The notes below the pieces were generated by a model that saw only the letters and a program-made list of their open reading frames with translations, was not told the origin of the DNA and searched no databases. Shown in pieces: positions 1-7,847 of a stretch of DNA of 7,847 bases. Each line of letters opens with the position of its first letter. The first letter of the stretch is position 1. Origin of the DNA: a virus (lineage: Duplodnaviria > Heunggongvirae > Uroviricota > Caudoviricetes); IMG/VR virus record IMGVR_UViG_2671180338_000002, positions 1-7,847 of that record; one strand, 5' to 3'. A program made the translations under genes and the position numbers.

Positions 1-1
1 G

Positions 2-109
2 GCGAATTACCGTCTTATATCACTGGCGCTGACATCTCCGGATGACGGGGGCAGCTGTTATCTCTGGCTCAACCGTGGGCAACCACCCGCAGTTAACCGG
101 CGACGATAA
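2..109 (+). CDS. FII: Head-tail joining protein FII, C-terminal fragment (5' end lies outside the window)
   Basis: Reading frame from position 2 translates to ANYRLISLALTSPDDGGSCYLWLNRGQPPAVNRRR then TAA at 107-109; this resembles the C-terminus of lambda gpFII as I recall it (SPDDGGSC..LW..PPAVNRRR) and sits immediately upstream of Z as in lambda. Confidence 0.7.
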   Translation, partial: ANYRLISLALTSPDDGGSCYLWLNRGQPPAVNRRR

Positions 110-123
110 ACGCAGGGTGAATT

Positions 124-699
124 ATGGCGATAAAAGGGCTTGATCAGGCGATTGACAATCTGAACCGGGTTCGTAAAAACGCCATTCCGGCTGCTTCTGC
201 AATGACCATTAACCGCGTGGCCACAACGGCGATTAATCAGTCTTCGTCACAGGTTGCCCGGGAAACCAGGGTGAGACGGAAACTGGTAAAGGAACGGTCC
301 AGACTGAAACGGGCGACGGTCAGAAATCCGAATGCCAGAATTATCGTTAACCGCGGTGATCTCCCTGTGATTAAGCTGGGGATCAGAATGCTGGGGCGTC
401 GTCCGAACAGCATACTCAAAGCCGGTCAGCATCGTTATCAGCGGGCATTTATCCAGCGATTAAATAATGGGCGCTGGCATGTTATGCAACGTCTTCCCCA
501 GGCCAGATATGAGGAGGGCAATGACGACAAGGGAAGGAAAAAGCGTAATCGCCTTCCCATTCAGGTGGTGAAAATCCCGATGGCGGCCCCACTGAAACAG
601 GCATTTGATGAGAATGTTGACCGTATCCGGCGTGAACGCCTGCCTAAAGAACTGGCATACGCGCTGAAACAACAACTGAGGATTGCGATAAAACGATGA
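124..699 (+). CDS. Z: Tail completion protein Z
   Basis: 191-aa ORF starting MAIKGL.., ending ..[19 protein letters not shown]; recognisable as a lambda gpZ homologue; G-rich Shine-Dalgarno-like stretch (cagggtg) upstream; stop TGA overlaps the U start (ATGA at 696-699). Confidence 0.88.
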   Translation: MAIKGLDQAIDNLNRVRKNAIPAASAMTINRVATTAINQSSSQVARETRVRRKLVKERSRLKRATVRNPNARIIVNRGDLPVIKLGIRMLGRRPNSILKAGQHRYQRAFIQRLNNGRWHVMQRLPQARYEEGNDDKGRKKRNRLPIQVVKIPMAAPLKQAFDENVDRIRRERLPKELAYALKQQLRIAIKR

Positions 700-1091
700 A
701 ACACACTGACATTCGTGCCGCAGTGCTGGATGCACTCAAGCAGCATGAACACGGGGCGACGCTGTTTGATGGTCGCCCCGTTGTTTTTGACGAAGAGGAT
801 TTTCCTGCGATCGCGGTTTATCTGACGGATGCAGAGTATACCGGTGAAGAGCTGGATGCAGATACCTGGCGGGCCACACTGCATATTGAGGTGTTTTTAC
901 CGGCACAGGTACCTGATTCGGAGCTCGATCAGTGGATGGAAAGCCGGATTTATCCGGCGATGACTGCGATCCCTGCACTGGCAGGACTGATTACCACGAT
1001 GGTTACGCAGGGCTATGAGTATCGTCGTGATGACGATATGGCGTTATGGAGCTCTGCGGATCTGACTTATTCCATTACATACGAGATGTGA
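696..1091 (+). CDS. U: Tail terminator protein U
   Basis: 131-aa [17 protein letters not shown]...[17 protein letters not shown]...[14 protein letters not shown], recognisable as lambda gpU; start overlaps Z stop; position between Z and V. Confidence 0.9.
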
Positions 1092-1098
1092 GGACGAT

Positions 1099-1851
1099 AT
1101 GGCAACACCAAATCCCCTGGAGCCGGTAAAAGGTGCCGGTACCACTCTGTGGGTTTACAACGGCAAGGCTGATGCTTATGCAAACCCGTTGTCAGACGAT
1201 GACTGGCAGCGACTGGCTAAGGTGAAGGATCTGACGCCGGGCGAGATGACGGCTGAATCCTATGATGATAACTACCTGGATGATGAAGACGCGGACTGGA
1301 GCGCGACCGGGCAGGGGCAGAAATCTGCAGGTGATACCAGTTTTACGCTGGCCTGGAAACCGGGAGAGGAAGGCCAGAAAGGGCTTATAGGCTGGTTTGA
1401 AAGCGGCGATGTCCGGGCCTATAAAATCCGTTTTCCGAATGGCACGGTGGATGTGTTTCGTGGCTGGGTCAGCAGTATCGGTAAGGCCGTGACGGCGAAA
1501 GAAGTGATCACCCGCACGGTGAAAGTCACTAACGTGGGTAAACCTTCTGTAGCGGAAGAACGCAGCAAAATTACGCCGGTCAGTGCGATTAAGGTGACGC
1601 CGACATCCGGTACGGTGGCAAAAGGGAAAACAACCACCCTGACGGTTTCTTTTGAGCCGGAAAGTGCAACCGACAAGACGTTCAGAGCGGTTTCCGCCGA
1701 TCCGTCGAAAGCCACCATTAGTGTGAAAGATATGACAATTACGGTAAACGGCGTGGCGACAGGTAAGGTGCAGATCCCTGTGGTGAGCGGAAATGGTCAG
1801 TTCGCCGCAGTGGCTGAAGTCACCGTTACTGAAGCGGGCGCTGCAGGGTAA
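1099..1851 (+). CDS. V: Major tail tube protein V with C-terminal Ig-like domain
   Basis: 250-aa ORF with ..[66 protein letters not shown].., recognisable as lambda gpV; GAGGA SD 6-7 nt upstream; the C-terminal ~90 aa ([20 protein letters not shown]...[10 protein letters not shown]) look like a Big_2-type Ig-like domain. Confidence 0.92.
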
Positions 1852-1864
1852 ACGGAGGTAATAC

Positions 1865-2296
1865 ATGTTTCTGAAAACAGAACAATTTGAATATAACGGT
1901 GTGTCTGTCACGCTTTCCGAATTGTCTGCGCTGCAGCGTATCAAGCATCTTGCCCTCCTGAAACGGCGTGCAGAACAGGCAGAATCCAGCGGCAACCTGC
2001 AGGTAAGCGTGGAAGATCTCGTCAGAACCGGCGCGTTTCTGGTGGCGATGTCCCTGTGGCATAACCATCCACAGAAAACGCAGTCACCGTCAATGAATGA
2101 GGCCGTGATGAAGATAGAGCAGGAAGTGCTCACCACCTGGCCTGCCGATGCCATTGCCCGGGCGGAAGACGTGGTGTTGTGCCTGTCCGGGATGATCGAA
2201 GCTGTTCGTCCGGATACTGATATTACTGAAGTGGCGAAAAATAACACGCTGACTGATGATGATTTTTCTGCGGGAAAGTCTTCGACGGCGAGCTGA
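1865..2296 (+). CDS. G: Tail assembly chaperone G (zero-frame product)
   Basis: 143-aa ORF MFLKTEQFEYNGVSVTLSELSALQRIKHLALLKRRAEQAE...AMSLWHNHPQKTQSPSMNEA.., recognisable as lambda gpG; GGAGG SD upstream; contains the in-frame slippery heptamer G GGA AAG near its 3' end. Confidence 0.9.
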   Translation: MFLKTEQFEYNGVSVTLSELSALQRIKHLALLKRRAEQAESSGNLQVSVEDLVRTGAFLVAMSLWHNHPQKTQSPSMNEAVMKIEQEVLTTWPADAIARAEDVVLCLSGMIEAVRPDTDITEVAKNNTLTDDDFSAGKSSTAS

Positions 2297-2736
2297 ACTT
2301 TGCCCTCAGACTGGCGCGTGAGATGGGGAGACCCGACTGGCGCGCCATGCTTGCCGGGATGACATCCACCGAATATGCCGACTGGCGCCGTTTTTACCGC
2401 ACGCATTATTTTCAGGATACCCAGCTGGATATGCATTTTTCCGGGCTGACGTACGCTGTACTCAGCCTGTTTTTTTGCGATCCGGATATGCATCCCTCTG
2501 ATTTCAGTCTGCTTGTCCCCCGGCATGAGGAAGAGCAGGTGGAGAGGCCGGATGAGGACAAAATGCTGATGCAGAAAGCGGCAGGACTTGCCGGAGGCGT
2601 CCGGTTCGGTGGGGACGGAGGGCGCGATATTTTATCGTCTGCGGATGTGGCGGATGTCATGGTGGATGATGCCGCATTAATGATGGCTTCAGCGGGGATT
2701 CCGGGAGGTGTGAGATATGTCCCAGCCGGTTGGTGA
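1865..2736 (+). CDS. GT: Tail assembly chaperone G-T fusion made by programmed -1 ribosomal frameshift at 2272-2278; the T-frame part is read from 2278 to the stop at 2734-2736
   Basis: Slippery sequence GGGAAAG at 2272-2278 is in the G frame as G GGA AAG; the -1 frame continues VFDGELNFALRLAREMGRPDWRAMLAGMTSTEYADWRRFY...GGVRYVPAGW, which I recognise as lambda gpT. The T frame has no independent in-context start before 2323. Confidence 0.85.
2272..2278 (+). promoter_or_regulatory. -1 programmed ribosomal frameshift slippery heptamer (G GGA AAG)
   Basis: Exact X XXY YYZ heptamer in the G zero frame, 6 codons before the G stop, with an open -1 frame downstream encoding the T homologue. Confidence 0.85.
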
Positions 2737-5290
2737 TCTTGTTATTGACCTGAGTCTGGATGCTGTCCGTTTCGATGAGCAGATGAGCCGGGTAAGGCGT
2801 CATTTTTCAGGTCTGGATACCGACGCCAGAAAAACCGCCAGTGCTGTTGAACAGGGCCTGAGCCGCCAGGCGCTGGCTGCACAAAAAGCCGGGATTTCCG
2901 TCGGGCAGTATAAAGCGGCCATGCGAACCCTGCCCGCACAGTTTACGGATATCGCCACGCAGCTTGCCGGTGGTCAGAATCCCTGGCTGATCCTGCTGCA
3001 ACAGGGCGGTCAGGTGAAGGACTCCTTCGGCGGGATGATCCCCATGTTCAGGGGGCTTGCCGATGCGATCCCCCTGCCGATGGTCGGGGTCACCTCGCTG
3101 GCGGTGGCGACAGGTGCACTGGTGTACGCCTGGTACCAGGGAGATTCCACGCTTTCAGCGTTTAATAAAACCCTGGTTCTTTCCGGTAATCAGTCCGGAC
3201 TGACTGCCGATCGTATGCTGACTCTCTCAAGAGCCGGGCAGGCAGCAGGGCTGACGTTTAACCAGGCGAGAGAGTCACTGGCAGCCCTGGTGAATGCCGG
3301 TGTGCGTGGTGGTGAACAGTTTGATGCCATCAACCAGAGTGTCGCGCGTTTTGCGTCTGCATCCGGTGTGGAGGTGGATAAAGTCGCTGAAGCCTTCGGG
3401 AAGCTGACCACTGACCCGACGTCGGGACTGATGGCGATGGCGCGCCAGTTCCGTAACGTGACGGCAGAGCAGATTGCGTATGTTGCACAGCTGCAGCGTT
3501 CCGGAGACGAGGCCGGGGCATTGCAGGCGGCGAACGATATCGCCACGAAAGGCTTTGATGAGCAGACCCGTCGCCTGAAAGAAAACATGGGAACACTGGA
3601 GACCTGGGCGGATAAAACAGGGAAGGCATTCAAATCGATGTGGGATGCCATTCTGGATATCGGTCGTCCGGAATCCTCAGCGGATATGCTCGCCAGTGCG
3701 CAGAAGGCATTTGATGAGGCGGATAAAAAATGGCAGTGGTACCAGAGTCGGAGCCAGCGCCGCGGTAAAACCTCCTCTTTCCGGGCCAACCTTCAGGGCG
3801 CATGGGATGACCGGGAAAATGCCCGTCTGGGTCTGGCAGCGGCAACGCTGCAGTCGGATATGGAAAAAGCCGGTGAACTGGCGGCAAGGGACAGGGCTGA
3901 GCGTGAGTCGTCACAGCTGAAGTATACCGGAGAGGCGCAGAAGGCGTATGAGCGCCTGCTGACGCCACTGGAGAAATATACCGCCCGGCAGGAAGAGCTG
4001 AATAAGGCCCTGAAAGACGGGAAAATCCTGCAGGCGGATTACAACACGCTGATGGCGTCGGCAAAAAAGGATTATGAGTCGACGCAGAAAAAGCCGTCCG
4101 GTGTGAAGGTGTCTGCCGGTGAGCGCCAGGAAGACCAGGCGCATGCAGCCCTGCTGGCGCTTGAAACTGAGCTCAGGACGCTGGAGAAGCACAGCGGTGC
4201 GAATGAAAAAATCAGCCAGCAGCGCCGTGATTTATGGAAAGCGGAAAATCAGTATGTGGTCCTGAAAGAGGCCGCCACGAAACGGCAGTTATCTGAGCAG
4301 GAAAAATCCCTGCTGGCCCATGAGAAAGAAACGCTGGAGTACAAACGCCAGCTGGCTGAGCTGGGCGACAAGATTGAACACCAGAAACGGCTGAATGAGC
4401 TGGCACAGCAGGCGGCGCGGTTTGAACAGCAGCAGAGCGCGAAGCAGGCGGCAATCAGCGCAAAAGCCCGCGGACTCACCGACCGTCAGGCGCAGCGGGA
4501 GTCGGAAGAGCAGCGCCTTCGTGAGGTGTACGGTGATAATCCGGCTGCGCTGGCGAAGGCCACATCTGCACTGAAGAACACCTGGTCTGCGGAGGAGCAG
4601 CTTCGTGGAAGCTGGATGGCCGGGATGAAGTCCGGCTGGGGCGAGTGGGCGGAAAGTGCGACGGACAGTTTTTCGCAGGTTAAAAACGCGGCCACGCAGA
4701 CCTTTGACGGTATTGCACAGAATATGGCAGCGATGCTGATCGGCAGCGAACAGAACTGGCGTGGTTTCACCCGTTCTGTGCTGTCCATGCTGACAGAGAT
4801 TTTTCTGAAGCAGGCGATGGTGGGGATAGTCGGGAGTATCGGCAGCGCCATTGGCGGTGCTTTCGGTGGTGGTGCGTCTGCCTCCACGGGGACGGCCATT
4901 CAGGCTGCGGCGGCGAACTTCCATTTCGCGACCGGGGGATTTACGGGGACGGGGGGTAAATATGAACCTGCGGGGATTGTTCATCGCGGGGAGTTTGTCT
5001 TCACGAAGGAGGCGACCAGCCGGATTGGTGTCGGCAATCTGTACCGCCTGATGCGGGGCTATGCGGAAGGTGGTTATGTCGGCGGTGCCGGAAGTCCGGC
5101 GCAGATGCGGCGGGCGGAAGGCATTAATTTTAATCAGAACAATCACGTGGTGATTCAGAACGACGGCCCCAACGGGCGGGCAGGGCCGCAGCTGATGAAA
5201 GCGGTGTATGAGATGGCCCGCAAGGGGGCACAGGATGAACTCCGGCTGCAGTTGCGTGATGGCGGTATGTTATCAGGGAGCGGTGGATGA
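2717..5290 (+). CDS. H: Tail tape measure protein H
   Basis: 857-aa ORF MSQPVGDLVIDLSLDAVRFDEQMSRVRRHFSG...; long alpha-helical/coiled-coil middle region rich in Q/E/K/R/A, Gly-rich hydrophobic C-terminal segment; recognisable along its length as lambda gpH; GGGAGG SD 8 nt upstream; start lies 20 nt inside the end of the T frame. Confidence 0.95.
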   Translation: MSQPVGDLVIDLSLDAVRFDEQMSRVRRHFSGLDTDARKTASAVEQGLSRQALAAQKAGISVGQYKAAMRTLPAQFTDIATQLAGGQNPWLILLQQGGQVKDSFGGMIPMFRGLADAIPLPMVGVTSLAVATGALVYAWYQGDSTLSAFNKTLVLSGNQSGLTADRMLTLSRAGQAAGLTFNQARESLAALVNAGVRGGEQFDAINQSVARFASASGVEVDKVAEAFGKLTTDPTSGLMAMARQFRNVTAEQIAYVAQLQRSGDEAGALQAANDIATKGFDEQTRRLKENMGTLETWADKTGKAFKSMWDAILDIGRPESSADMLASAQKAFDEADKKWQWYQSRSQRRGKTSSFRANLQGAWDDRENARLGLAAATLQSDMEKAGELAARDRAERESSQLKYTGEAQKAYERLLTPLEKYTARQEELNKALKDGKILQADYNTLMASAKKDYESTQKKPSGVKVSAGERQEDQAHAALLALETELRTLEKHSGANEKISQQRRDLWKAENQYVVLKEAATKRQLSEQEKSLLAHEKETLEYKRQLAELGDKIEHQKRLNELAQQAARFEQQQSAKQAAISAKARGLTDRQAQRESEEQRLREVYGDNPAALAKATSALKNTWSAEEQLRGSWMAGMKSGWGEWAESATDSFSQVKNAATQTFDGIAQNMAAMLIGSEQNWRGFTRSVLSMLTEIFLKQAMVGIVGSIGSAIGGAFGGGASASTGTAIQAAAANFHFATGGFTGTGGKYEPAGIVHRGEFVFTKEATSRIGVGNLYRLMRGYAEGGYVGGAGSPAQMRRAEGINFNQNNHVVIQNDGPNGRAGPQLMKAVYEMARKGAQDELRLQLRDGGMLSGSGG

Positions 5291-5616
5291 AAACCTTTCG
5301 CTGGAAAGTGAAGCCGGATATGGAGGTGAACTCGCAGCCATCGGTGCGTGAAGTGCGTTTTGGTGACGGGTACTCACAGCGTATGGCGGCAGGGCTGAAT
5401 GCTGACCTGAAAACATACAGGGTGACGCTTTCCGTGACCCGGGAGGAGGCCCGGCATCTGGAAGCGTTCCTGGCAGAGCACGGTGGCTGGAAGGCATTTT
5501 TGTGGAAGCCACCCTATGCATACCGGCAGATAAAGGTGACCTGTGCCGGGTGGTCTGCGCGGGTCGGGATGTTGCGCGTTGAGTTCAGCGCGGAGTTTAA
5601 GCAGGTGGTGAACTGA
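5287..5616 (+). CDS. M: Tail tip assembly protein M
   Basis: 109-aa ORF MKTFRWKVKPDMEVNSQPSVREVRFGDGYSQR...WKPPYAYRQIKVTCAGWSARVGMLRVEFSAEFKQVVN, recognisable as lambda gpM; start overlaps H stop (ATGA). Confidence 0.9.
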   Translation: MKTFRWKVKPDMEVNSQPSVREVRFGDGYSQRMAAGLNADLKTYRVTLSVTREEARHLEAFLAEHGGWKAFLWKPPYAYRQIKVTCAGWSARVGMLRVEFSAEFKQVVN

Positions 5617-6314
5617 TGCAGGATATTCGCGAAGAAAGTCTGAACGAGTCGGTTAAGTCAGAGCAGTCACCGCGGGTGGTACTCTGGGAAATCGACCTGA
5701 CGGTACAGGGTGGTGAGCGGTATTTTTTCTGTAATGAGCTGAATGAAAAAGGGGAGCCGGTCACCTGGCAGGGGCGTAAGTATGAGGCATACCCGATTGA
5801 CGGCAGCGGCTTTGAGATGAACGGCCGGGGCAGCAGTGCCAGACCGTCGCTGACGGTGTCCAATCTGTTCGGTCTGGTCACCGGGATGGCGGAAGACCTG
5901 CAGAGTCTGGTGGGGGCCACGGTGGTCCGCCGCCGGGTGTATGCCCGTTTTCTGGATGCGGTGAATTTCGTTGCGGGCAATCCGGAGGCGGACCCGGAGC
6001 AGGAGCTGAGTGACCGCTGGGTGGTGGAGCAGATGTCGCAGCTGACAGCCATGACGGCCTCGTTTGTGCTGGCTACACCGACCGAGACGGACGGGGCGCT
6101 GTTTCCCGGTCGCATCATGCTGGCGAACACCTGTATGTGGGATTACCGGGGAGATGAATGCGGGTATAACGGTCCTGCGGTGGCGGATGAGTTCGACAAC
6201 CCCACCACGGATATCCGTAAGGACAGATGCAGCAAGTGCATGCGCGGGTGTGAACTGCGCAGGAATGTCGGCAATTTTGGCGGTTTCCTTTCCATTAATA
6301 AACTTTCGCAGTAA
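5616..6314 (+). CDS. L: Tail tip protein L, with a C-terminal cysteine cluster
   Basis: 232-aa ORF MQDIREESLNE..VVLWEIDLT..GGERYFFCNE..GEPVTWQGRKYEAYPI..FPGRIMLANTCMWDYRGDECGYNGPAVADEFD..CSKCMRGC..VGNFGGFLSINKLSQ, recognisable as lambda gpL; start ATG overlaps M stop (TGATG). Confidence 0.92.
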   Translation: MQDIREESLNESVKSEQSPRVVLWEIDLTVQGGERYFFCNELNEKGEPVTWQGRKYEAYPIDGSGFEMNGRGSSARPSLTVSNLFGLVTGMAEDLQSLVGATVVRRRVYARFLDAVNFVAGNPEADPEQELSDRWVVEQMSQLTAMTASFVLATPTETDGALFPGRIMLANTCMWDYRGDECGYNGPAVADEFDNPTTDIRKDRCSKCMRGCELRRNVGNFGGFLSINKLSQ

Positions 6315-6324
6315 ATCCCGGTTT

Positions 6325-7068
6325 ATGACACAGACTGAATCAGCGATTCTGGCACATGCCCGGCGGTGTGCGCCTGCGGAGTCGTGCGGCTTCGTGATAA
6401 GCACGCCGGAGGGGGAGCGGTATATCCCTTGTGTGAATATTTCCGCAGAGCCGGAGGCGTATTTTCGTATCGCACCGGAAGACTGGCTGCGGGCAGAGAT
6501 GCAGGGGGAGATTGTGGCACTGGTCCACAGTCATCCCGGTGGGCTGCCCTGGCTGAGCGAGGCTGACCGGCGGTTGCAGATAAAAAGCGCACTGCCCTGG
6601 TGGTTGGTCTGCCGGGGTGACATTCACAAATTCCGCTGTGTGCCACATCTGACAGGACGGCGCTTTGAGCACGGGGTGACGGACTGTTACACGCTGTTCC
6701 GGGATGCTTATCATCTGGCGGGGACTGAAATGCCGGATTTTCATCGCGAGGATGACTGGTGGCGCAACGGTCAGAACCTTTACCTGGACAATATGGCGGT
6801 CACCGGCTTTTACCGGGTGCCCCTGTCCTCTGCACAGGCGGGCGATATTCTGCTGTGCTGCTTTGGTGCTTCGGTACCGAACCATGCCGCCATTTACTGC
6901 GGCAACGGTGAGCTGCTTCACCATCTGCCTGAACAACTGAGTAAACGGGAGAGGTATTCCGAAAAATGGCAACGACGAACGCATTCAGTCTGGCGTCACC
7001 GCCACTGGCACGCATCTGCCTTCACGGGGATTTACAACGATTTGGCCGCCGCCTCAGCCTGTATGTGA
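6325..7068 (+). CDS. K: Tail tip assembly protein K, predicted JAB/MPN (JAMM) plus NlpC/P60 two-domain protein; start codon uncertain (longest in-context ORF given; an internal ATG at 6499 is the alternative)
   Basis: ORF in frame from the ATG at 6325 just after the L stop; contains the JAMM-like motif HSHPGGLPWLSEAD (6526-6567) and a downstream Cys (GVTDCYTLF, Cys codon 6685-6687) and His (PNHAAIY) typical of NlpC/P60 papain-like peptidases; recognisable as a lambda gpK homologue. No clear SD before 6325. Confidence 0.82.
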   Translation: MTQTESAILAHARRCAPAESCGFVISTPEGERYIPCVNISAEPEAYFRIAPEDWLRAEMQGEIVALVHSHPGGLPWLSEADRRLQIKSALPWWLVCRGDIHKFRCVPHLTGRRFEHGVTDCYTLFRDAYHLAGTEMPDFHREDDWWRNGQNLYLDNMAVTGFYRVPLSSAQAGDILLCCFGASVPNHAAIYCGNGELLHHLPEQLSKRERYSEKWQRRTHSVWRHRHWHASAFTGIYNDLAAASACM

Positions 7069-7679
7069 ACACGGCAGCGGAAGCCATTCGCGCCCTGTCG
7101 ATGCAGATGCCGGGCTTTCGCCGTCAGATGAACGAAGGCTGGTACCAGATACGTATTGCCGGTTATGACACGGCACCGGAGGCGGTGTACGCCCGTCTTC
7201 ACGAACAGCTGGGTGAGGGAACGGTCATCCACATTGTGCCGCGACTGGCCGGGGCCGGAAAGGGTGGACTGCAGATTGTGCTGGGGGCGGCAGCCATCGT
7301 GGGCTCTTTCTTCACTGCCGGGGCATCAATGGCGTTATGGGGTTCAGCCCTGGCAGCCGGTGGTTTTTCTGCCACCACGATGCTGTTTTCACTTGGAGCC
7401 AGCATGATTCTGGGCGGTGTGGCCCAGATGCTGGCCCCGAAGGCAAAAACACCGGATTACCGCGCAACGGATAACGGCAGACAGAACACGTACTTTTCCT
7501 CACTGGATAACATGATTGCCCAGGGGAACCCGATGCCGGTGCCTTACGGGGAAATGCTGGTTGGCTCCCGCCGTATATCCCAGGACATCAGCACCCGTGA
7601 TGAAGGCGGGGGCGGAAAGGTCGTGNNNNNNNNNNNNNNNNNNNNNNNNNAGGTCGTGGTTATCGGGCGGCAGGGGTAA
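6966..7679 (+). CDS. I: Tail tip assembly protein I (interrupted by a 25-nt N-run at 7626-7650)
   Basis: ORF MATTNAFSLASPPLARICLHGDLQRFGRRLSLYVNTAAEAIRAL... with an N-terminal compact domain ending ..IHIVPRLAGAGKGG followed by a Gly/Ala-rich hydrophobic C-terminal half; recognisable as lambda gpI; overlaps the 3' end of K by 103 nt in a different frame, as K and I do in lambda. Confidence 0.83.
   Translation: MATTNAFSLASPPLARICLHGDLQRFGRRLSLYVNTAAEAIRALSMQMPGFRRQMNEGWYQIRIAGYDTAPEAVYARLHEQLGEGTVIHIVPRLAGAGKGGLQIVLGAAAIVGSFFTAGASMALWGSALAAGGFSATTMLFSLGASMILGGVAQMLAPKAKTPDYRATDNGRQNTYFSSLDNMIAQGNPMPVPYGEMLVGSRRISQDISTRDEGGGGKVVXXXXXXXXXVVVIGRQG
7626..7650. other. Run of 25 N (assembly gap or masked bases) within the 3' end of gene I
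   Basis: Literal n characters at 7626-7650; flanked on both sides by the identical octamer AGGTCGTG (7618-7625 and 7651-7658). Confidence 0.99.
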
Positions 7680-7725
7680 AAAGAATAAAAAAATCCCGCA
7701 GTGATCGCGGACAGGAACTGCGGGA
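7680..7725 (-). terminator. Candidate rho-independent terminator for a leftward (minus-strand) transcript
   Basis: Inverted repeat TCCCGCAGT (7694-7702) / ACTGCGGGA (7717-7725), a 9-bp GC-rich stem with a 14-nt loop; on the minus strand the stem is followed immediately by TTTTTTTATTCTTT (plus 7680-7693). On the plus strand no U-run follows, so it is not a plus-strand terminator. Confidence 0.45.
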
Positions 7726-7789
7726 GAGTTACGAAGATTAAGTGTAAGGAATTATTCTTATATCACGACAAAAAAATTAACGCAGAGAA

Positions 7790-7817
7790 ATTATACGCGC
7801 CACAGTCAGTTTGTGAA
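7790..7817 (-). promoter_or_regulatory. Candidate sigma70 promoter on the minus strand (-35 TTCACA, 16-nt spacer, -10 TATAAT)
   Basis: Minus-strand reading: TTCACA (plus 7812-7817), 16 nt, TATAAT (plus 7790-7795), a perfect -10 hexamer and 4/6 match to the -35 consensus, inside an AT-rich non-coding stretch. Confidence 0.35.
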
Positions 7818-7847
7818 AATGTGAAGATATTCAGAATTTTTATGCCA

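What the first reader, a model, noticed from the sequence alone, without database searches (positions are those of the whole stretch)
7680..7847. Abrupt shift to AT-rich non-coding DNA after gene I, where lambda has the J start
Through 7679 the window is GC-rich, densely coding DNA in lambda order. In lambda, J begins about 60 nt after I. Here the final ~170 nt are strongly AT-rich (runs such as AAAGAATAAAAAAA and ACAAAAAAATTAAC), contain no ORF on the track, and show no J-like N-terminus (the only ATG near the end, at 7841, reads Met-Pro at the window edge). This looks like the boundary of a horizontally acquired insertion (moron) between I and J, or a rearranged junction; the window ends before its content is visible.
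Basis: partly seen in the sequence, partly recalled or inferred. Interest (0 to 1): 0.5.

Follow-up and report, generated by a model that had tools for sequence, protein, structure and literature searches.

The report
Prophage small-RNA gene between tail genes
The AT-rich stretch after tail gene I is not the edge of an inserted gene cassette: it is a compact, backwards-facing small regulatory RNA gene, a divergent copy of the known prophage sRNA PasB, which sits between tail genes I and J in about a third of complete E. coli genomes.

Summary
Bases 7680-7847 are 36% GC against 57% upstream (z = -5.1), with no credible ORF and no J start. The cassette interpretation is wrong. In complete E. coli genomes carrying this exact sequence, J starts 343 nt after the I stop, about 175 nt past the window end; lambda's spacer is 60 nt. 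The extra DNA is a self-contained minus-strand transcription unit: an 11/12 sigma-70 promoter (7817-7790), an AT-rich body without AUG, and a hairpin plus U7 terminator (7724-7687). It occupies the same I-J slot and orientation as PasB, an 83-nt Hfq-dependent sRNA validated by Northern blot and RIL-seq in EPEC E2348/69; 20 of the 23 bases of the PasB Northern probe match 7692-7711 exactly. The window's allele keeps PasB's promoter (45/47) and terminator stem but has a diverged body (40/65). Repeating the search settings of the only published PasB survey finds 956 of 5,426 genomes and none of this allele; a sensitive search finds the family in 1,842, about 650 with this allele. Expression of this allele was not tested. 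A 25-N run in gene I (7626-7650) with an 8-bp duplicate is an assembly artefact. Verdict: a new member of a known family, of modest interest.

The parts
6966..7679 (+). Tail assembly gene I. The lambda-like start at 6966 overlaps K by 103 nt; RefSeq homologues are annotated from the position equivalent to 7065. The stop codon TAA is at 7677-7679.
   Evidence: Pfam Lambda_tail_I, E = 6e-17. RefSeq annotates identical DNA as 'tail assembly protein'. The K/I overlap matches lambda.
7626..7650 (.). Run of 25 N followed by a duplicated AGGTCGTG (7618-7625 and 7651-7658). Together these add 33 nt that are absent from complete genomes. This is a scaffold or assembly artefact, not biology.
   Evidence: The left flank ends at L001 9007 and the right flank starts at L001 9000. 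The best complete genome spans 7,780 nt against 7,813 nt in the window, a difference of 33. An independent E. albertii draft contig starts at the same point, L001 9004.
7687..7783 (-). Predicted primary transcript of a pasB-family small RNA ('W-type' allele): 97 nt from G7783 to the end of the U7 tail at 7687. The position equivalent to the published, coverage-based 5' end of reference PasB is T7770, which would give about 84 nt.
   Evidence: A profile built from reference-type alleles only matches 7783->7688 on the minus strand end to end, E = 6.9e-12. Bases 1-20 of the PasB Northern probe match 7692-7711 exactly. The RNA has no AUG.
7687..7724 (-). Rho-independent terminator of the sRNA: outer stem CCCGCAG (7724-7718) / CTGCGGG (7701-7695), a 16-nt loop, one A, then U7 (7693-7687).
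   Evidence: Terminator scan and RNA fold. The outer stem is invariant in 38 unique alleles while the loop varies from 10 to 16 nt. On the plus strand no T-run follows the hairpin.
7733..7741 (-). UUAAUCUUC, the conserved single-stranded core just 5' of the terminator. AUCUU is invariant across alleles. This is the candidate seed.
   Evidence: Family alignments. The position agrees with the PasB seed proposed in bioRxiv 10.64898/2026.05.13.724894.
7746..7759 (-). (A-R-N)3 tract AAGAAUAAU (7759-7751) followed by UCCUU (7750-7746). This is a candidate Hfq distal-face motif next to an anti-Shine-Dalgarno-like pentamer.
   Evidence: Of 38 alleles, 35 have at least 3 consecutive ARN triplets at this position despite different sequences. 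The W-type shuffle fraction is 0.03-0.05 and the reference type has 5 triplets at <0.002. The functional reading is inference.
7790..7817 (-). Sigma-70 promoter of the sRNA: -35 TTCACA (7817-7812), 16-nt spacer, -10 TATAAT (7795-7790).
   Evidence: It matches 11 of 12 consensus positions; 2 sites were found against 0.5 expected. The 47-nt upstream and promoter block is 45/47 identical to the promoter of Northern-validated PasB in E2348/69.
7820..7835 (.). Conserved palindrome-like block TGTGAAGATATTCAGA (TCTGA-N6-TCACA on the sRNA strand), which is CRP-like. It is retained even in alleles whose -35 has diverged.
   Evidence: It has one mismatch to TGTGA-N6-TCACA; 3 hits in the window against 0.18 expected. 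It is conserved in VT1-Sakai, Stx2a_WGPS8 and 1720a-02. Its centre lies about -44.5 from the predicted start site, which is not a canonical CRP position. This is a lead only.
7836..7847 (+). The first 12 nt of the J-proximal half of the spacer, which continues beyond the window. In identical genomes a strong hairpin plus T-tract follows, and J starts 343 nt after the I stop, equivalent to about position 8023.

Best explanation
Bases 7680-7847 are the first half of a 343-nt I-J intergenic spacer. It carries a complete, autonomously transcribed small-RNA gene of the PasB family on the minus strand, convergent with the tail operon. A sigma-70 promoter (7817-7790) starts transcription near 7783. 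The RNA runs through a U-run, an (A-R-N)3 tract, UCCUU and a conserved UUAAUCUUC core, and ends at a 7-bp GC-rich hairpin plus U7 (7724-7687), 8 nt short of the I stop codon. By homology with PasB of EPEC E2348/69, it is most likely made in the lysogen from its own promoter, stabilised by Hfq, and acts in trans by base-pairing with host and accessory-genome mRNAs. In Hendrix's sense it is a minimal 'sRNA moron': AT-rich, with its own promoter and terminator, and absent from lambda at this junction. Shown here: the anatomy, the position, the homology and the distribution. Inferred: expression, Hfq dependence and trans-action of this particular allele.
For: The promoter and terminator were found by scan. 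J follows directly in complete genomes. Published PasB coordinates (NC_011601.1 1466261-1466343, minus strand; PMC8550237 Table S6) fall between I (ends 1466255) and gpJ (starts 1466496) in E2348/69, the same slot and orientation as here. Twenty of the 23 bases of the PasB probe match 7692-7711 exactly on the expected strand. A profile built without any window-type sequence matches the window end to end at E = 6.9e-12. Module identities to reference PasB are promoter 45/47, body 40/65 and terminator 32/38. Hybrid alleles link the two types. Lengths from 144 to 154 nt, covering every value but 153, and U-run length polymorphism rule out coding constraint, and the RNA has no AUG. The ARN tract and AUCUU core are conserved across diverged alleles. 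Reference PasB is Northern-validated, drops 5- to 100-fold in delta-hfq, and has 37 RIL-seq interactions (PMC8550237). The allele is at least 99% identical in 633 complete genomes.
Against: There are no expression data for this allele. No Rfam family exists, and nothing in 7000-7847 reached a gathering score. The body alone is only marginally similar to reference PasB (E = 0.012). The terminator stem never varies, so there is no covariation support. The W-type fold is only modestly better than shuffles (z = -2.1). The published 5' end of PasB lies 15 nt downstream of the promoter-predicted start, so the true 5' end is uncertain. The promoter is better conserved than the RNA, which could mean that the act of transcription or a DNA site matters more than the RNA product.
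Confidence: 0.8

Rival explanations
1. The unit acts mainly in cis. The RNA is perfectly complementary to the I-J untranslated segment of the late transcript, and transcription converges on the late operon. It could therefore trigger RNase III cleavage or transcriptional interference and so tune J and downstream tail-fibre expression. Trans targets would be secondary.
For: The gene is convergent and lies inside the late operon. The promoter block (45/47) is better conserved than the RNA body (40/65). The position is fixed at I-J in all 117 resolved loci.
Against: Reference PasB has 37 Hfq-dependent RIL-seq partners in the core and accessory genome (PMC8550237). The RNA overlaps neither the I coding sequence nor the J ribosome-binding site, ending 8 nt from the I stop and starting at least 90 nt before J. 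Late transcription is Q-antiterminated and very strong.
Confidence: 0.12
2. The stretch is an inert, decaying spacer. The promoter-like and terminator-like sites are remnants and no functional RNA is made from this allele.
For: No expression data exist for this allele. The body is diverged. The fold z-score is modest. One locus (L053) has lost part of the spacer.
Against: The 151-nt unit is at least 99% identical in 633 genomes, and the family is present in 1,842 of 5,426, with up to 9 copies per genome. An 11/12 promoter and a U7 terminator are both intact. The ARN tract and AUCUU core are retained across alleles that otherwise differ by about 40%.
Confidence: 0.06
3. One reading: the AT-rich DNA is the left edge of a horizontally acquired protein-coding cassette or a rearranged junction between I and J.
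For: The GC drop is abrupt. The window ends before J. An N-run lies nearby.
Against: In complete genomes with identical sequence J starts 343 nt after I, with no gene between. The whole window is contiguous at 99.1% in NZ_AP022650.1. The only spanning ORF (113 aa, GTG start) crosses hairpins and is broken by length variants, and the distal half is unrelated in E2348/69.
Confidence: 0.01
4. The junction is an assembly chimera. The N-run at 7626-7650 joins a tail operon to unrelated AT-rich DNA.
For: There are 25 N plus an 8-bp duplicate 27 nt before the I stop.
Against: Both flanks are adjacent and collinear in complete genomes, differing only by the 33 artefactual bases. The right flank still contains the last 29 nt of gene I.
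Confidence: 0.01

Closest known systems
PasB (pathogenicity-associated sRNA B) of EPEC O127:H6 E2348/69, prophage PP6 (Pearl Mizrahi et al. 2021, PMC8550237; Zhu, Shabalina & Storz 2026, bioRxiv 10.64898/2026.05.13.724894)
   Same: It has the same slot (between tail genes I and J) and the same antisense orientation. The promoter is near-identical (45/47). The terminator outer stem, U7 tail and terminator 3' half are identical. The ARN tract, UCCUU and AUCUU(C) core are shared. The first 20 bases of the Northern probe match exactly.
   Different: The RNA body is only 62% identical (40/65, with indels). The terminator loop is 5 nt longer. The ARN tract has 3 triplets rather than 5. The spacer is the long form (343 nt against 240 nt), with an unrelated J-proximal half. 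The allele is not retrieved with the search settings of the published survey. It has no expression or interaction data of its own.
Prophage anti-sRNAs AgvB/AsxR (EcOnc01-03) of EHEC O157 (Tree et al. 2014, PMC4104026)
   Same: These are also short Hfq-binding sRNAs encoded at fixed positions in lambdoid prophages with their own promoter and terminator. The family has a conserved 3' module and a variable 5' part, and carries an ARN motif.
   Different: They sit at a different site (downstream of PR' and stx, not in the tail operon). They share no sequence similarity with this RNA and are shorter (51-60 nt). They act by sponging core sRNAs, which is not shown for PasB.
Classical lambdoid 'morons' (Juhala et al. 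2000, as cited in PMC4104026), for example lom and bor
   Same: This is extra DNA between two conserved phage genes, with deviant base composition and its own promoter and terminator. It is presumed to be expressed from the prophage.
   Different: The cargo is a roughly 100-nt non-coding RNA, not a protein gene. The I-J junction is not one of the classical moron sites.
Lambda OOP RNA (own knowledge)
   Same: It is a short RNA (77 nt) with its own promoter and intrinsic terminator, transcribed convergently against a phage operon.
   Different: OOP overlaps and acts on the cII mRNA 3' end through RNase III. The RNA here overlaps no coding sequence, and its relative PasB has many trans partners.

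Membership tests
PasB sRNA family | Encoded in the intergenic spacer between lambdoid tail genes I and J, on the strand opposite the tail operon | tested here: met
   The reference coordinates lie between I and gpJ in E2348/69. In the window the unit starts 8 nt after the I stop on the minus strand, and J follows in identical genomes.
PasB sRNA family | Detectable sequence homology to reference PasB over the whole RNA | tested here: met
   An nhmmer profile of 16 reference-type alleles, with no window-type sequence, matches 7783->7688 over model positions 1-97 at E = 6.9e-12. The body alone gives only E = 0.012, so the signal is carried largely by the 5' start and the terminator. Hybrid alleles bridge the two types.
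PasB sRNA family | Own sigma-70 promoter shared with reference PasB | tested here: met
   TTCACA-16-TATAAT matches 11 of 12 positions. The block is 45/47 identical to the E2348/69 upstream block.
PasB sRNA family | [quoted passage not shown] | tested here: met
   CCCGCAG/CTGCGGG plus AU7. The stem is invariant across 38 alleles, so there is no covariation for or against it.
PasB sRNA family | Conserved single-stranded seed just upstream of the terminator | tested here: met
   UUAAUCUUC is present at 7741-7733, and AUCUU is invariant across alleles. That this is the seed is a proposal of the 2026 preprint, not an experimental result.
PasB sRNA family | Expressed as an RNA of about 83 nt whose level depends on Hfq and which forms Hfq-mediated chimeras with mRNAs | not testable with these tools
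   This is shown only for the E2348/69 allele (PMC8550237: Northern blot; log2FC -6.8 and -2.4 in delta-hfq; 37 interactions).
Moron (autonomous insertion in a lambdoid operon) | Extra DNA between two genes that are adjacent in related phages | tested here: met
   The spacer is 343 nt against lambda's 60 nt. The alignment shows the sRNA module inserted between the I stop and the J-proximal hairpin.
Moron (autonomous insertion in a lambdoid operon) | Own promoter and terminator, and a base composition unlike the neighbouring genes | tested here: met
   body 29% GC and tail 36% GC, against 57% for the operon.
Moron (autonomous insertion in a lambdoid operon) | Carries a protein-coding gene expressed from the prophage | tested here: not met
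   There is no conserved ORF. Length polymorphism breaks any frame, and the RNA has no AUG. It is moron-like in architecture only.
CRP-activated promoter | TGTGA-N6-TCACA site centred at -41.5 (class II) or at -61.5 or further upstream (class I) | tested here: inconclusive
   A site with one mismatch lies at 7820-7835 and is conserved in all alleles. Its centre is about -44.5 from the predicted start site, which is non-canonical. PasB is higher in the condition where Spf is lower (PMC8550237), which is compatible with CRP activation but only correlative.

The most novel reading that the evidence does not exclude
The I-J sRNA slot may be a conserved expression frame: a near-invariant promoter with an upstream regulator site, plus an invariant terminator, within which the RNA body diversifies and recombines. 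The window's allele would then be a distinct, expressed, Hfq-dependent regulator with a partly different target set. It is common in extraintestinal E. coli and was missed by the published PasB survey, so the family would be about twice as widespread as reported (1,842 against 956 of 5,426 complete genomes).
Probability: 0.35. Interest if true: 0.4.

Novelty: new member of a known kind. Interest (0 to 1): 0.25.

Why it matters
The result explains an apparent anomaly in a very common prophage region as a known type of element, and shows that no hidden cassette sits between I and J. It also flags three practical gaps. First, the sRNA is unannotated in all the RefSeq genomes examined and has no Rfam model. 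Second, the most frequent allele in this sample appears to lie outside the only published distribution survey, so estimates of PasB prevalence and pathovar association may be biased towards EPEC/EHEC-type alleles. Third, many E. coli lysogens carry one to nine copies of an Hfq-competing sRNA family whose targets are unknown. None of this changes how prophage sRNAs are thought to work.

Tried and rejected
Rfam (E-value mode) on 7000-7847 and on the full spacer gave only sub-threshold chance hits, such as PK-repZ at 18 bits against a gathering score of 44 and SSRC34_2 at 27 against 48. I rejected these.

Protein-coding readings were rejected. A 113-aa GTG ORF spans the spacer in L001, but it crosses two hairpins, is broken by U-run length variants, and its distal half is unrelated in E2348/69.

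Covariation support for the sRNA terminator was sought, but the stem is invariant and therefore uninformative.

A literal search of the literature for the terminator sequence found nothing.

I tried to cross-reference the EHEC EcOnc catalogue of Tree et al. 2014 for an earlier name. Its supplement gives no positional descriptors I could match without Sakai coordinates, so this was not completed.

The CRP-site idea was examined. The motif is significant and conserved, but its spacing is non-canonical, so I kept it as a lead only.

I looked for a divergent plus-strand promoter that might drive a second small RNA ending at the J-proximal hairpin. None was found by scan or by eye.

The 444-aa antisense ORF at 1192-2526 has no Pfam hit and is only 227 aa in the related locus, so it is spurious.

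Full report
OBSERVATION. The last 168 bases of the window (7680-7847) are 36.3% GC, against 56.9% for 1-7679. None of the 7,458 equal-sized windows upstream falls below 48.2%, giving z = -5.1. Pfam confirms the upstream genes as lambda-like V, G, T, H, M, L, K and I, and I ends at TAA 7677-7679. The window contains no J start. Lambda's own I-J spacer is 60 nt: I ends at 15444 and J starts at 15505. The terminal ATG is at 7842, not 7841. The tail contains a 70% GC hairpin.

WHAT FOLLOWS THE WINDOW. Bases 7652-7847 occur at 100% identity in hundreds of complete E. coli genomes. In two that I inspected, J (gpJ) starts 343 nt after the I stop with nothing annotated between them. The best-matching complete genome, NZ_AP022650.1, holds window 35-7847 as a single place at 99.1% identity. 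Across 137 fetched loci, 117 could be resolved. In all of them J follows the I stop after either about 343 nt (79 loci) or about 240 nt (37 loci), with one locus at 295 nt. There is therefore no cassette and no rearrangement. If the sequence continued, J would start about 175 nt beyond the window end.

ANATOMY. Read on the minus strand, the AT-rich DNA is a complete small transcription unit.
- The promoter is TTCACA-16 nt-TATAAT at 7817-7790, matching 11 of 12 consensus positions; the scan found 2 sites against 0.5 expected.
- The predicted start is G7783.
- The body is 29% GC, with no AUG.
- The terminator is a hairpin, CCCGCAG/CTGCGGG with a 16-nt loop (7724-7695), followed by A and U7 (7694-7687).
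- The RNA would end 8 nt before the complement of the I stop codon.
- On the plus strand no T-run follows the hairpin, so it is not a terminator for the tail operon.

IDENTITY. Pearl Mizrahi et al. 2021 (PMC8550237) discovered five prophage sRNAs in EPEC E2348/69 by Hfq RIL-seq. Their Table S6 lists PasB at NC_011601.1 1466343-1466261 on the minus strand, 83 nt long, in prophage PP6, with Northern probe AATCCCGCAGTGATCGCGGAGCT. In that genome the coordinates fall between the tail assembly gene I (ends 1466255) and gpJ (starts 1466496). That is the same slot and orientation as in the window. The first 20 probe bases match window 7692-7711 exactly, on the strand expected for a minus-strand RNA.

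An alignment shows a near-identical promoter and an identical terminator 3' half, but a diverged body. By module, identity is 45/47 for the upstream and promoter block, 40/65 for the body, and 32/38 for the terminator. A profile built only from 16 reference-type alleles matches the window end to end (7783->7688, minus strand) at E = 6.9e-12. The body alone reaches only E = 0.012. Rfam has no model for this RNA, and only chance sub-threshold hits appeared.

THE FAMILY. Scans of IMG/VR with the terminator and promoter motifs gave 38 unique alleles in 140 copies. There are at least three body types: the window's 'W-type'; the reference 'E-type', including the published PasB-2, whose C27A change I recover at exactly the stated position; and a shorter type. 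Hybrids between types also occur.
- Lengths cover every value from 144 to 154 nt except 153, and the U-run varies in length, so no reading frame is maintained.
- Three conserved features were not imposed by my search anchors. The CCCGCAG arm is invariant. The AUCUU core is invariant within UUAAUCUUC, just 5' of the terminator, where Zhu et al. 2026 place the predicted PasB seed. An A-R-N repeat tract followed by UCCUU is also conserved: 35 of 38 alleles have at least 3 triplets. W-type has AAG-AAU-AAU, which 3-5% of shuffles equal, and E-type has five triplets, which fewer than 0.2% of shuffles equal.
- Three more diverged alleles from Stx phages (VT1-Sakai, Stx2a_WGPS8 and 1720a-02) keep these features and the upstream TCTGA-N6-TCACA block, although their -35 regions differ.
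- The terminator stem never varies, so covariation says nothing for or against it.

DISTRIBUTION AND WHAT IS NEW. A sensitive search with the window's 151-nt unit finds the family in 1,842 of 5,426 complete E. coli genomes, with up to 9 copies per genome. By best identity per record, 633 are at 99% or above, 17 at 95-99%, 187 at 90-95%, 187 at 80-90% and 829 at 60-80%. No copy is annotated. Among one genome per species of GTDB, the promoter motif occurs only in E. albertii and in one contaminant contig.

The only survey of PasB (Zhu, Shabalina & Storz 2026, bioRxiv 10.64898/2026.05.13.724894) used the 83-nt E2348/69 sequence with blastn word size 28 and required more than 75% query coverage. 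[quoted passage not shown] The window's allele shares at most 25 consecutive bases with that query. Repeating that search on the RefSeq set gives 956 genomes, all at 90% identity or above with full coverage, so no W-type locus is retrieved.

I therefore infer that the W-type, and about 886 carrier genomes in all, lie outside the published picture. I could not inspect the survey's hit table, so this is an inference from its methods and my re-run, not a demonstrated omission.

HOW IT MOST LIKELY WORKS. Three things are shown for the reference allele only. It gives a Northern band of the predicted size. It depends strongly on Hfq, with log2 fold changes of -6.8 and -2.4 in delta-hfq. It has 37 RIL-seq interactions with core and accessory transcripts, and higher expression under the non-activating condition (PMC8550237). 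Its function is explicitly 'not elucidated'.

For the window's allele I infer the same mode. It would be transcribed in the lysogen from its own sigma-70 promoter. Hfq would bind it through the U7-tailed terminator and the ARN tract. It would pair in trans through the single-stranded UCCUU...UUAAUCUUC region. UCCUU is complementary to AAGGA, so occlusion of ribosome-binding sites is a plausible mechanism, but that too is inference.

A cis role cannot be excluded. The RNA is fully complementary to the I-J untranslated segment of the late mRNA and converges on late transcription. The promoter being better conserved than the RNA body fits that idea, or fits a conserved regulator site.

The conserved upstream block has one mismatch to the CRP core; the window has 3 such hits against 0.18 expected. 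PasB behaves oppositely to the CRP-repressed Spf in the published conditions. However, the site's centre lies about -44.5 from the predicted start, which is non-canonical. This remains a lead, not a finding.

COMPARISON WITH LAMBDA. Aligning the junctions shows that lambda's 60-nt spacer already contains a plus-strand hairpin with a T-tract just before J. Both spacer types here carry an analogous but non-homologous hairpin in the same place. The two short subtypes differ by a compensatory change in that stem. What is added relative to lambda is the sRNA module of about 160 nt, inserted between the I stop and that hairpin; the long form adds about 100 further nt. Architecturally this is a moron with an RNA cargo.

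THE N-RUN. Bases 7626-7650 are N, and AGGTCGTG is repeated on both sides. The flanks map to overlapping positions in L001 (left flank ending at 9007, right flank starting at 9000). The best complete genome is exactly 33 nt shorter across the region. An independent E. albertii draft contig begins at the same point. The site is therefore a repeat boundary where short-read assemblies break. Gene I is really 33 nt shorter than the 6966-7679 ORF suggests.

VERDICT. The cassette or rearrangement interpretation is not supported, although 'moron-like' is fair as a description of the architecture. The element belongs to the known PasB sRNA family, as a divergent and very common allele that the published survey probably missed. 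It is a new member of a known kind, of modest interest.

Noticed in passing
window 7626-7650 (with 7618-7625 and 7651-7658): There is a run of 25 N inside gene I, flanked by a duplicated AGGTCGTG. Together these add 33 nt that are absent from complete genomes, so the listed I ORF is artificially long. An E. albertii draft contig (L125) starts at the same point, which suggests a repeat boundary where assemblies break.
   Followed up: yes
L126 (NZ_JBHTEB010000006.1, 'Streptomyces flavalbus' tig00003715, 3,408 nt): The contig is 96.8% identical over its full length to the E. coli prophage K-I-pasB-J region. Its GC is 58.6%, far too low for Streptomyces (own knowledge), so it is almost certainly a contaminant in that assembly. 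It carries a hybrid pasB allele.
   Followed up: partly
L001 9243-9281; L003 about 2860-2900; L004 (lambda) 1465-1493. All lie beyond the window end.: Every I-J spacer type, including lambda's 60-nt spacer, has a strong plus-strand hairpin followed by a T-tract just upstream of J. The sequences are non-homologous, and the two short subtypes show a compensatory stem change (CAGGCACC/GGTGCCTG against CAGGCATCC/GGATGCCTG). A terminator-like element inside the late operon is unexplained. It may be an insulator in the lysogen or an mRNA-processing or stability element.
   Followed up: partly
window 7820-7835: The CRP-like block TCTGA-N6-TCACA is conserved upstream of the sRNA promoter in all alleles, including those whose -35 has diverged. 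Its spacing to the -10 is 3 bp longer than in class II CRP promoters.
   Followed up: partly
L001 and L002 annotation tables: The RefSeq locus tags skip one number exactly between I and J (RS22950 to RS22960, and RS11320 to RS11330). A feature may once have been called in the spacer and later withdrawn. No RNA gene is annotated there in any record examined.
   Followed up: no
window 1192-2526, minus strand: A 444-aa antisense ORF spans the V, G and T genes. It has no Pfam match, and the corresponding ORF in the related locus L001 is only 227 aa, so it is spurious.
   Followed up: yes
window 2272-2278: GGGAAAG lies 18 nt before the G stop codon. This is the slippery heptamer expected for the lambda-type G/GT -1 frameshift (own knowledge). 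It is the only copy in the window, although one copy is about what chance would give.
   Followed up: partly
window 3501-5000 compared with L001: The tape-measure gene H is mosaic. Identity to L001 drops to 74-80% across about 1.5 kb, while the flanking tail genes are 94-99% identical. The spacer itself is 100% identical.
   Followed up: no
L053 (IMGVR_UViG_2671180417_000014): One long-type spacer has a clean 47-nt deletion that removes the J-proximal hairpin, giving a 295-nt spacer. The hairpin is therefore dispensable in at least one prophage.
   Followed up: no
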